This document shows positions 14,282 to 16,008 of a DNA stretch of 40,656 nucleotides, in pieces. Every line of letters starts with the position of its first letter. Position 1 is the stretch's first letter. A program made the translations under genes and the position numbers. This DNA is from Przondovirus NAN33P1. Below the pieces are notes generated by a model that worked only from the letters and a program-made list of their open reading frames with translations, had not been told where the DNA came from and did not search any database. The DNA is taken from the sequence record OZ035777.1, one strand, 5' to 3'.

Positions 14282-16008
14282 GTTACGGAGACTCTCAAGA
14301 AGACGGTCAGGAGAGTATCTTCCTGTTCCACGCTCCGTGCGAAAACTGTGGTTCTTCTGATGGTAACTCAGTGTACTCTGACGGGCACGAGTATTGCTTC
14401 GTGTGTCAACACCGGGTTCCCGGCTCAGAGGAACGTACCGAAAAGTTATCATCAAGAAGACCCAAAGGAGGGAATTACGGGATGAATACACAAGGTTCAG
14501 GCTTATTGGTATTCGGTGAGAATGACGGTCGGTACACTGACCTGACGGCTCGTGGTATCTCAAAGGCGACATGCCAGAAGGCTGGCTATTGGGTCGCCAA
14601 GGTCCGAGGGACTGCCTATCAGGTGGCCGACTATCGAGACCAGAATGGCTCCATCGTCTCTCAGAAGCTGCGGGACAAGGAGAAGAACTTCTCTACCAGA
14701 GGGTCCCACAAAGGGGATGCACTGTTCGGTAAGCACTTATGGAACGGTGGCAAGAAGATTGTCATCACCGAGGGTGAAATCGACATGTTAACCGTGATGC
14801 AGCTTCAGGACTGTAAGTGGCCTGTTGTTTCTCTCGGTCACGGTGCGTCAGCCGCTAAGAAAACTTGCAGTGCAAACTACGAGTATTTCGATAGCTTCGA
14901 CCAGATTATCCTGATGTTCGATATGGATGACCCCGGTCGTGCAGCTGTAGAGGAAGCCGCTCAGGTTCTACCTCCCGGTAAGGTCCACGTGGCCGTGCTA
15001 ACCGAGAAGGACGCCAACGAGTGTTTACTCAAGGGCAAAGGTAAGGAGGTTCTCGACCAGATATGGAACGCGGCCCCTTGGGTGCCTGATGGTGTCATCG
15101 GCGCTATGTCCATGAAGGACCGAGTACGCGAAGCAATGACCAGCGAACAAAGCGTAGGATACCTTTTCTCGGGATGTCCGGGACTGAATGACCGAACCTT
15201 AGGTGCACGTGGTGGCGAAGTCATCATGGTCACTTCTGGGTCAGGAATGGGTAAATCTACATTCGTTCGCCAGCAGGCACTAGGGTTCGCCAGAGAGCAG
15301 GGACTGAAGGTTGGCATGGCGATGCTTGAAGAGTCCGTAGAGGAGACGATGGAGGATGTTCTAGGAATTGCTAACGGCATCCGCTTACGGCAGCAACCTC
15401 GGGAGTTCAAGCAGAGGCTGATAGAAGACGGGACGTATGACAAATGGTTCGATGAGCTATATGGCACCGACCAGTTCCATCTCTACGACTCCTTTGCGGA
15501 AGCTGAGGTAGACCGCCTGCTGGCCAAGCTGCACTACATGCGCACAGGGTTAAACTGTGACGTAATCATTCTGGACCACATCTCAATCGTAGTGTCTGCC
15601 TCAGAGGAATCCGATGAGCGCAAGATGATTGACCGACTCATGACCAAGCTGAAAGGGTTCGCTAAGTCAACCGGAGTGGTACTTATTGTTATTTGCCACC
15701 TGAAGAACCCGGAGAAAGGTAAAGCTCATGAAGAAGGACGTGCTGTTTCCATTACTGACTTGCGTGGGTCTGGGTCTCTGCGCCAGCTCTCTGATACTAT
15801 CATTGCCCTTGAGCGTAATCAGCAAGGGGACATGCCTAATCTTGTCCTCCTTCGTATTCTCAAGTGTCGCTTTAATGGTATTGGCGTTGGCATTGCGGGG
15901 TACATGGAGTACAACGAAAAGACCGGACTCCTCGAACCGTCTAGCTACACTGGTGGAGAAGGAGAGGGAGATACTGGCTGGGAAGGCCACGAAGAAGACG
16001 ACTACTGA
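14278..16008 (+). CDS. DNA primase/helicase (T7 gene 4 homolog; internal 4B start predicted at 14482)
   Basis: 576 aa from ATG 14278 (MSYGDSQ...). Cys4 zinc ribbon (CENCGSSDG...CFVCQH), primase and helicase motifs ([58 protein letters not shown]) collinear with T7 gp4A. In-frame ATG 14482 with strong SD AAAGGAGGG (14464-14472) matches the T7 4B start context. Confidence 0.96.

What the first reader, a model, noticed from the sequence alone, without database searches (positions are those of the whole stretch)
14464..14484. Internal ribosome-binding site and start codon for a helicase-only gp4B isoform
Inside the primase-helicase gene, in frame, ATG 14482 is preceded by a strong SD AAAGGAGGG (14464-14472), 68 codons after the primary ATG (14278) and just after the Cys4 zinc ribbon. 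This reproduces the T7 4A/4B arrangement, where a shorter protein lacking the zinc-binding domain starts at an internal Met.
Basis: partly seen in the sequence, partly recalled or inferred. Interest (0 to 1): 0.4.

Follow-up and report, generated by a model that had tools for sequence, protein, structure and literature searches.

The report
Internal start for short primase-helicase (gp4B)
Inside the primase-helicase gene of this T7-like Klebsiella phage there is a second ribosome-binding site and start codon that most likely produces a shorter protein lacking the zinc finger, as in phage T7; the same site is already annotated in the close relative K11, so it is real but ordinary.

Summary
AAAGGAGGG lies at 14464-14472. 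An in-frame ATG lies at 14482, 68 codons after the gene 4 ATG at 14278. It sits in the linker between the Cys4 zinc ribbon (Cys21/24/40/43) and the RNA-polymerase domain.

The window is a Klebsiella Przondovirus (K11/KP32 group), and its gp4 is 74% identical to T7 gp4. The predicted products are 63.5 kDa (4A) and 56.0 kDa (4B), matching T7's 63- and 56-kDa proteins.

Within this genome alone, one such site is not beyond chance: 0.65 expected, 2 seen. Comparison with relatives is decisive:
- 15 of 28 gene 4 lineages carry a strong Shine-Dalgarno (SD) sequence plus an in-frame ATG or GTG in this linker, against 3 of 217 control windows.
- All 56 distinct Przondovirus sequences keep it.
- The linker peptide diverges while GGAGG and the start codon persist.
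- Synonymous variation is lowest there.

The K11 RefSeq record annotates 4B at the identical sequence, and T3 and phiYeO3-12 annotate the same kind of start.

Caveats: the 10-nt SD-to-ATG spacer is longer than at canonical starts here (4-8 nt), predicted RNA accessibility is unremarkable, and no protein data exist.

In passing: the 4A start has no SD and overlaps the stop codon of a small upstream ORF.

Verdict: already known; low interest.

The parts
14100..14119 (+). Phage RNA-polymerase promoter (TAGGTAGCACTACAGGGAGA) that heads the transcript carrying the small ORF and gene 4
   Evidence: Pattern search found 12 plus-strand copies of this promoter-like motif against 0.25 expected. The next downstream of 14119 is at 20975, so no match to this motif separates the two gene 4 starts. 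K11 annotates a promoter at the equivalent place.
14159..14281 (+). Small hydrophobic upstream ORF (40 aa) whose TGA stop overlaps the 4A ATG (ATGA)
   Evidence: Its own SD is GAGGAG, -9.3 kcal/mol. It matches phrog_13077, function unknown. An ATGA overlap with a 31-40 aa upstream ORF is present in 45 of 45 K11/KP32-type sequences. K11 and VAC71 annotate the equivalent ORF.
14278..16008 (+). Gene 4A: full-length primase-helicase, 576 aa, 63.5 kDa
   Evidence: Pfam hits: Zn_Ribbon_Prim 18-44, Helic-prim_T7_N 84-142, Toprim 160-250, DnaB_C 298-516. 74% identity to T7 gp4. The ATG itself has almost no SD, -3.1 kcal/mol.
14338..14409 (+). Cys4 zinc ribbon (Cys21, Cys24, Cys40, Cys43), present only in the long form
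   Evidence: Cysteine positions. They align with the CxxC...CxxC motifs of T7.
14464..14472 (+). Internal Shine-Dalgarno sequence AAAGGAGGG (core AAGGAGG 14465-14471), encoded by Lys-Gly-Gly codons AAA GGA GGG
   Evidence: Predicted -12.1 kcal/mol against the anti-SD. Codon 64 is GGA in 45 of 45 haplotypes although GGA is only 12-14% of Gly codons. GGAGG persists across diverged linkers.
14482..14484 (+). Internal in-frame ATG (Met69), the proposed 4B start codon
   Evidence: Invariant in 45 of 45 K11/KP32-type haplotypes and in all 56 distinct Przondovirus sequences. Identical site annotated as 4B in K11. Replaced by GTG in some lineages.
14482..16008 (+). Gene 4B: predicted short form, 508 aa, 56.0 kDa. 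It lacks the zinc-binding domain and keeps the RNA-polymerase/TOPRIM and helicase domains.
   Evidence: Translation and mass. The 503-residue T7 gp4 chain 1q57 matches from residue 78 onward.

Best explanation
Gene 4 of this Klebsiella Przondovirus has two in-frame translation starts on one mRNA. Ribosomes starting at ATG 14278 make the 63.5-kDa primase-helicase (4A). Ribosomes that bind the internal SD AAGGAGG (14465-14471) and start at ATG 14482 make a 56.0-kDa protein (4B). The short form lacks the Cys4 zinc-binding domain and keeps the RNA-polymerase/TOPRIM and helicase domains. By analogy with T7, 4B should be a fully active hexameric helicase that cannot make template-directed primers, and it should mix with 4A in the replisome. 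Shown here: the site, its position in the linker, its nucleotide-level conservation, the absence of a match to the phage promoter motif between the starts, and the orthology to T7 gp4. Inferred: that ribosomes actually initiate there, the 4A:4B ratio, and the activities of the two forms.
For: (1) The anatomy is exact: SD -12.1 kcal/mol, in-frame ATG, product sizes of 63.5 and 56.0 kDa, the same as T7's 63- and 56-kDa forms (PMC2910064; PMC12593628). (2) Orthology: 74% identity to T7 gp4 and the same Pfam domain order; the top PDB hits are T7 gp4, including the 503-residue chain 1q57 that matches from window residue 78. (3) Curated annotation: K11, of the same genus, has 4A and 4B with the same 204-nt offset and an identical upstream 20-mer. 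T7, T3 and phiYeO3-12 annotate 4B as in-frame internal initiation. (4) Across 188 distinct gene 4 N-termini in 28 clusters at 85% aa identity, 15 clusters have an in-frame ATG or GTG with SD of -10 kcal/mol or stronger in this linker, against 3 of 217 equal-length control windows elsewhere in gene 4 (Fisher 8e-14; lineages are not independent). (5) The linker peptide diverges (KGGNYGM, SGGKRV, TGGSKPM, NTGGDTM, GEGSKM, SGGKKQV, RGVRM) while GGAGG-like DNA and a start codon persist. The Val at the start position in those lineages is GTG. (6) The first Gly of the Gly-Gly pair is GGA in the lineages that carry that pair, although GGA is only 14% of Gly codons in these genes. (7) Synonymous diversity among 45 Przondovirus haplotypes is 0.01-0.03 over codons 51-70, against a mean of 0.143. 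(8) No match to the phage promoter motif lies between 14119 and 20975, so both starts appear to share one transcript. (9) Gene finders chose the internal start as the gene start in AP10, pO111 and Leclercia 10164-302, which shows how strong that start signal looks.
Against: There are no protein-level data for this phage or for any Przondovirus; a literature search found none. The 10-nt spacer is longer than at any canonical strong-SD start in this genome (4-8 nt), although T3, Kayfunavirus and Vibrio phage relatives share the 10-nt spacing. Predicted local RNA accessibility of the SD is not elevated: 16th percentile for the 7-nt SD and 71st for the 25-nt site. A single such site in one genome is within chance. 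The low synonymous diversity extends further upstream than a ribosome footprint, and a second low patch at codons 16-30 has no such explanation, so part of the signal could come from local hitch-hiking or recombination history.
Confidence: 0.85

Rival explanations
1. Coding by-product. GGAGG is simply how a flexible Gly-Gly linker happens to be encoded, Met69 is an ordinary residue, and no significant initiation occurs there.
For: Within this genome, 0.65 equally strong internal SD+ATG sites are expected by chance and 2 are seen. The 10-nt spacer is suboptimal. Predicted accessibility is unremarkable.
Against: The first Gly codon of the pair is GGA wherever that pair is present, despite 14% usage. 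SD plus start persists while the linker peptide changes, including ATG-to-GTG switches. Enrichment is 15 of 28 linkers against 3 of 217 control windows. Synonymous variation is at a minimum there. T7 makes both proteins from the equivalent site (PMC2910064, PMC12593628).
Confidence: 0.07
2. Internal SD as a translational pause. The SD-like sequence slows elongating ribosomes after the zinc-binding domain emerges, helping it fold, rather than recruiting new ribosomes.
For: The position, immediately after an independently folding domain, would suit such a role. This is inference only; no tool result supports it directly.
Against: A pause does not need a start codon 7-10 nt downstream, yet ATG or GTG co-occurs with the SD in all 15 positive lineages. 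From my own knowledge, SD-induced pausing in E. coli has been seriously questioned. T7 shows initiation at the homologous site (PMC12593628).
Confidence: 0.03
3. Single start at 14482. The real gene begins at the internal ATG, as several automatic annotations have it, and the upstream zinc-ribbon frame is not translated.
For: The 4A ATG has almost no SD (-3.1 kcal/mol). AP10, pO111 and Leclercia 10164-302 are annotated as starting at the internal codon.
Against: The upstream 68 codons are an open, conserved frame with all four zinc-ligand cysteines and low amino-acid variation. In T7 the zinc domain is needed for template-directed priming and the long form is required for growth (PMC12593628). 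The ATGA overlap with an upstream ORF that has its own SD offers a coupling route for 4A initiation, conserved in 45 of 45 sequences.
Confidence: 0.02
4. Coupled restart after a +1-frame ORF. A T7 gene 4.1-like ORF (ATG 14360 to TGA 14485) ends in an ATGA overlap with the 4B ATG, and 4B initiation depends on termination of that ORF.
For: The +1 ORF occupies the same position as T7 gene 4.1 and ends exactly at the 4B start, both here and in T7. It matches phrog_23725.
Against: Its ATG has no SD in any lineage (-2.3 to -5.0 kcal/mol). That ATG arises from the conserved Asp-Gly codons GAT GGT. The frame ends exactly at the 4B start in only 6 of 15 positive lineages and stops earlier or later in the rest. 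The phiYeO3-12 annotation states that its 4.15 ORF is not homologous to T7 gp4.1.
Confidence: 0.03

Closest known systems
Bacteriophage T7 gene 4A/4B (63-kDa and 56-kDa gene 4 proteins; 4B starts at Met64)
   Same: Orthologous protein (74% identity) with the same domain order. The internal start lies in the same linker after the Cys4 zinc-binding domain. GGAGG is encoded by a Gly-Gly pair. The product sizes are the same (63.5 and 56.0 kDa).
   Different: The spacer is 10 nt here and 7 nt in T7. Met lies 10 residues before the conserved FGE motif here and 7 in T7. T7's 4A start has a strong SD (-10.7 kcal/mol); here it has none (-3.1) and overlaps the stop of a small ORF. T7 has an internal promoter (phi4c) within gene 4; none was found here. 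T7's two proteins are shown experimentally; these are not.
Klebsiella phage K11 genes 4A/4B (RefSeq NC_011043, genus Przondovirus)
   Same: Same genus, same 204-nt offset, an identical 20 nt upstream of the internal ATG, and the same small upstream ORF overlapping the 4A start.
   Different: The K11 small upstream ORF is 31 aa and belongs to a different sequence type from the 40-aa ORF here. The K11 4B annotation is itself by analogy, with no experiment that I know of.
T3 and Yersinia phage phiYeO3-12 gene 4B ('in-frame internal initiation')
   Same: Same 10-nt GGAGG-to-ATG spacer and the same linker position.
   Different: The offset is 186 nt rather than 204. The linker peptide differs (TGGSKPM against KGGNYGM). 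The 4A start follows a promoter and an RNase III site, not an overlapping small ORF.

Membership tests
T7-type gp4 bifunctional primase-helicase (protein family) | N-terminal Cys4 zinc ribbon (CxxC...CxxC) | tested here: met
   Cys21, 24, 40 and 43 align with T7 Cys17, 20, 36 and 39. The Pfam Zn_Ribbon_Prim hit covers residues 18-44 but scores 20.7 bits, below the 23-bit cutoff.
T7-type gp4 bifunctional primase-helicase (protein family) | RNA-polymerase domain (T7 N-terminal a+b fold plus TOPRIM) followed by a DnaB-like helicase domain in one polypeptide | tested here: met
   Helic-prim_T7_N 1.8e-28, Toprim_2 1.6e-9, DnaB_C 1.5e-17. phrog_239 DNA primase/helicase 7e-236. 74% identity to T7 gp4. 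PDB 6n7i at 4e-284.
T7-type 4A/4B dual-start arrangement | In-frame start codon in the linker between the zinc-binding domain and the RNA-polymerase domain | tested here: met
   ATG 14482 is codon 69. It lies between Cys43 and the Helic-prim_T7_N domain that starts at residue 84.
T7-type 4A/4B dual-start arrangement | Shine-Dalgarno sequence at a functional distance upstream of the internal start | tested here: met
   AAGGAGG, -12.1 kcal/mol. The 10-nt spacer is long compared with this genome's canonical 4-8 nt but equals the spacing at the annotated T3 4B start.
T7-type 4A/4B dual-start arrangement | The start signal is conserved in relatives beyond what the protein sequence requires | tested here: met
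   15 of 28 lineages against 3 of 217 control windows. All 56 distinct Przondovirus sequences keep it. GGA codon bias, ATG/GTG switching, and a synonymous-diversity minimum support it.
T7-type 4A/4B dual-start arrangement | Both starts lie on the same mRNA, so the short form arises by translation, not from a separate transcript | tested here: met
   No match to the phage promoter motif between 14119 and 20975. Host-type promoters and RNA processing were not examined.
T7-type 4A/4B dual-start arrangement | Two co-linear polypeptides are actually made during infection | not testable with these tools
   Needs a western blot, N-terminal proteomics or initiation-site ribosome profiling. No paper on Przondovirus gp4 forms was found.
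T7-type 4A/4B dual-start arrangement | The short form is an active helicase without template-directed primase activity and co-assembles with the long form | not testable with these tools
   Known for T7 only (PMC2910064; PMC12593628, which cites Zhang et al. 2012). Inferred here from 74% identity.

The most novel reading that the evidence does not exclude
In K11/KP32-type Przondoviruses the two gene 4 starts may be driven by different mechanisms. The long form's ATG has no SD and overlaps (ATGA) the stop codon of a small hydrophobic ORF. Its synthesis would then depend on termination-reinitiation coupling, while the short form has its own strong SD. If so, the 4A:4B ratio, and with it the number of primase zinc fingers per hexamer, would be set by translation of a variable 31-40 aa upstream ORF rather than by two comparable SDs as in T7. 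The short form could be the major product. More broadly, the internal start is kept in the enterobacterial- and Vibrio-phage lineages sampled here, with ATG-to-GTG turnover, and is absent from the Pseudomonas- and Ralstonia-phage lineages and several uncultured-virus lineages. That pattern suggests the short form is a lineage-specific adaptation rather than a T7 curiosity.
Probability: 0.3. Interest if true: 0.35.

Novelty: already known. Interest (0 to 1): 0.15.

Why it matters
It matters mainly for correct annotation. Gene 4 of this phage should carry two CDS features, 4A at 14278-16008 and 4B at 14482-16008, as in K11, T7 and T3. Automatic pipelines either omit 4B or wrongly start the whole gene at the internal ATG and drop the zinc finger. 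The comparative survey adds modest biology. The internal start is conserved at the DNA level in about half of the gene 4 lineages sampled, which argues that the short form, whose in vivo role in T7 was described as unknown (PMC2910064), is under selection and not an accident of T7.

Tried and rejected
(1) Chance test within the window alone. It was not significant (0.65 expected, 2 observed), so the case rests on comparison with relatives.

(2) RNA accessibility (sliding-window unpaired probabilities). The SD is not predicted to be unusually open, so this is uninformative to slightly negative. Ribosomes translating 4A would unfold the region in any case.

(3) A +1-frame ORF equivalent to T7 gene 4.1 (14360-14485) as a coupling partner for 4B. 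Rejected: it has no SD in any lineage, and its end coincides with the 4B start in only 6 of 15 positive lineages.

(4) Upstream in-frame ATG 14257, used as the start in the KP32 record, and TTG 14143. Neither has an SD (-2.7 and +0.7 kcal/mol). ATG 14257 is absent from K11 and VAC71, so 14278 is the conserved 4A start.

(5) Rfam scan of the whole window found no RNA family.

(6) Internal promoter producing a separate 4B transcript. No match to the phage promoter motif was found.

(7) Literature search for experimental gp4A/gp4B data in Klebsiella phages found nothing. Zhang et al. 2012 and Mendelman et al. 1992 are not held in the library, so they are cited only through PMC12593628.

(8) The minus-strand ORF 14276-14572 and the +2-frame ORF 14394-14519 were not pursued. 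All recognised genes and promoters of this genome are on the plus strand.

Full report
**What the window is.** The region around the finding is 93-97% identical in DNA to many Klebsiella phages of the genus Przondovirus (K11/KP32 group, T7-like Autographiviridae).

The ORF from ATG 14278 to 16008 encodes a 576-aa protein. Its Pfam domains, in order, are:
- Zn_Ribbon_Prim, residues 18-44
- Helic-prim_T7_N, residues 84-142
- Toprim, residues 160-250
- DnaB_C, residues 298-516

The protein is 74% identical to T7 gp4. Its best solved-structure matches are T7 gp4, including 1q57, a 503-residue chain that matches from window residue 78 onward (from my own knowledge 1q57 is the 56-kDa form). The flanking genes are endonuclease I and the amidase/lysozyme upstream and DNA polymerase downstream, in T7 order.

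**Checking the observation.** The coordinates are exact:
- AAAGGAGGG at 14464-14472.
- ATG at 14482-14484.
- Primary ATG at 14278-14280, which is 204 nt (68 codons) upstream and in frame.

The core AAGGAGG pairs with the 3' end of 16S rRNA at a predicted -12.1 kcal/mol. The zinc-ligand cysteines are residues 21, 24, 40 and 43. Met69 therefore lies in the linker between the zinc-binding domain and the RNA-polymerase domain. The two predicted products are 63.5 kDa (576 aa) and 56.0 kDa (508 aa). These are the same sizes as the T7 63-kDa and 56-kDa gene 4 proteins (PMC2910064).

**Is it more than chance?** Not on this genome alone. I scored the upstream SD pairing energy at 9,931 internal in-frame codon positions of long plus-strand ORFs.
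- 0.27% of positions reach -12.1 kcal/mol.
- With 239 internal in-frame ATGs, 0.65 such sites are expected.
- Two are observed, at 14482 and at 32722 in the putative gene 16.

The spacer from GGAGG to ATG is 10 nt, whereas ten canonical strong-SD gene starts of this genome have 4-8 nt. Predicted unpaired probability of the SD is not elevated: 16th percentile of 7-nt windows in the gene, and 71st percentile for the 25-nt site.

**Comparative evidence.** This is what decides the case. I collected 288 gene 4 loci from annotated phage records and IMG/VR. That gave 188 distinct N-terminal sequences in 28 clusters at 85% amino-acid identity.
- In 15 of the 28 clusters the linker contains an in-frame ATG or GTG preceded by an SD of -10 kcal/mol or stronger.
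- Equal-length control windows elsewhere in gene 4 of the same representatives reach that level in 3 of 217 cases (Fisher 8e-14; lineages share ancestry, so this overstates independence).
- All 56 distinct sequences of the Przondovirus cluster keep the site.

The linker peptide has diverged widely while the GGAGG-like DNA and a start codon 4-10 nt downstream persist. Examples are KGGNYGM, SGGKRV, TGGSKPM, VGGGKPM, RGGAAM, NTGGDTM, GEGSKM, SGGKKQV and RGVRM. In the AP10/140f lineage, the Kayfunavirus lineage and L050 the start codon is GTG.

Codon usage points the same way. In the lineages that carry the Gly-Gly pair, its first Gly is GGA, although GGA is only 14% of Gly codons in these genes and 12% in the window.

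Among 45 K11/KP32-type haplotypes, synonymous diversity is 0.01-0.03 across codons 51-70, against a gene-wide mean of 0.143. Codon 64 is GGA in 45 of 45 and codon 69 is ATG in 45 of 45.

The signal is absent from the following:
- Jarilovirus.
- One other enteric-type lineage (L283).
- The Pseudomonas-phage lineages sampled (ALEA, genus Ghunavirus, and UFJF_PfSW6).
- The Ralstonia phage 10RS305A.
- Several lineages known only as uncultured IMG/VR contigs, including the most divergent cluster (L239).

**Annotation in curated relatives.**
- T7 carries 4A (11565) and 4B (11754).
- T3 and phiYeO3-12 carry a 4B CDS noted as 'in-frame internal initiation'.
- Klebsiella phage K11, in the same genus as the window, carries 4A (11148) and 4B (11352). 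That is the same 204-nt offset, with an identical 20-nt sequence upstream of the ATG.

Many pipeline-annotated relatives list only one CDS. AP10, pO111 and Leclercia 10164-302 start gene 4 at the internal codon, presumably because that start signal looks stronger than the one at the 4A ATG. Jarilo's CDS also starts downstream of the zinc ribbon, although no strong internal SD was found there.

**Mechanism.** A phage promoter motif (TAGGTAGCACTACAGGGAGA) lies at 14100-14119, and the next one is at 20975. No match to that motif separates the two starts, so a shorter product would have to arise by internal translation initiation on the shared mRNA.

For T7, the literature states the following (PMC2910064; PMC12593628, citing Dunn & Studier 1983, Mendelman et al. 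1992 and Zhang et al. 2012):
[quoted passage not shown] - A mixture of the two forms works better with the polymerase than the long form alone.

I infer the same roles here from the 74% identity and the conserved architecture. 'Helicase-only' describes the activity; the short form retains the TOPRIM/RNA-polymerase domain.

**A difference from T7, noticed in passing.** The 4A ATG at 14278 has essentially no SD (-3.1 kcal/mol, against -10.7 in T7). It overlaps, as ATGA, the stop codon of a 40-aa hydrophobic ORF (14159-14281) that has its own SD (GAGGAG, -9.3).

The same ATGA overlap with a 31-40 aa upstream ORF is present in 45 of 45 K11/KP32-type sequences. The small ORF comes in at least three sequence types, and the 4A SD is weak in all of them (-1.5 to -7.3). 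The ORF matches phrog_13077, of unknown function.

This suggests that 4A synthesis is translationally coupled to the small ORF while 4B has an independent strong SD. The 4A:4B ratio may therefore be set differently from T7. This is inference only.

**Rejected ideas.**
- The +1-frame ORF 14360-14485 sits where T7 gene 4.1 sits and ends in ATGA at the 4B start. However, its ATG derives from conserved Asp-Gly codons, it has no SD in any lineage, and its end coincides with the 4B start in only 6 of 15 positive lineages.
- The upstream in-frame ATG 14257 (the KP32 annotation) is not conserved and has no SD.
- Rfam finds nothing in the window.

**Verdict.** This is the T7-type gene 4A/4B internal-start arrangement, already annotated at the identical site in phage K11 and experimentally established in T7. 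It is a known feature in a routine member of the family. The remaining uncertainty is experimental: no protein data exist for any Przondovirus, and the 10-nt spacer could make the internal start less efficient than in T7.

Noticed in passing
window 14159-14281 and 14278: The 4A start codon has almost no Shine-Dalgarno sequence (-3.1 kcal/mol). It overlaps (ATGA) the stop of a 40-aa hydrophobic ORF that has its own SD (phrog_13077, unknown function). The overlap is present in 45 of 45 K11/KP32-type relatives even though the small ORF exists in at least three sequence types. This suggests translational coupling of 4A, unlike T7.
   Followed up: partly
window 14360-14485 (+1 frame of gene 4): An ORF at the position of T7 gene 4.1 ends in an ATGA overlap with the internal 4B ATG and matches phrog_23725. 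It has no SD and is not consistently open, or ending at the 4B start, in other lineages. It is probably not a gene.
   Followed up: yes
window 32700-32724: This is the second internal in-frame ATG in the genome with a strong upstream SD (CGGAGGAGGGGCGTAACTACATG, -12.6 kcal/mol). It lies 140 codons into the 1325-codon open frame 32302-36276, the putative gene 16 internal core protein. Conservation was not checked.
   Followed up: no
window 14323-14367 (gene 4 codons 16-30): A second patch of near-zero synonymous diversity among 45 Przondovirus haplotypes (0.000-0.012 against a mean of 0.143) covers the first CxxC of the zinc ribbon. No start signal explains it.
   Followed up: no
window 2668, 3475, 9016, 9655, 10177, 12431, 14100, 20975, 23406, 24476, 28992, 36278 (+ strand): Twelve plus-strand copies of the phage promoter motif TAGGTAGCACTATAGGGAGA (0.25 expected by chance). 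None lies inside gene 4, whereas T7 has phi4c there.
   Followed up: partly
L080 (AP10), L083 (pO111), L084 (Leclercia 10164-302), L086 (Jarilo), L097 (KP32): Public annotations of gene 4 are inconsistent. AP10, pO111 and Leclercia 10164-302 start the CDS at the internal 4B codon and so drop the zinc finger. Jarilo's CDS also starts downstream of the zinc ribbon. KP32 starts 7 codons upstream of the conserved 4A ATG at a non-conserved ATG.
   Followed up: partly
window 15728-16060: An overlapping out-of-frame ORF (110 aa) near the 3' end of gene 4 sits at the same offset (1450 nt from the 4A start) as the annotated gene 4.2 of K11.
   Followed up: no
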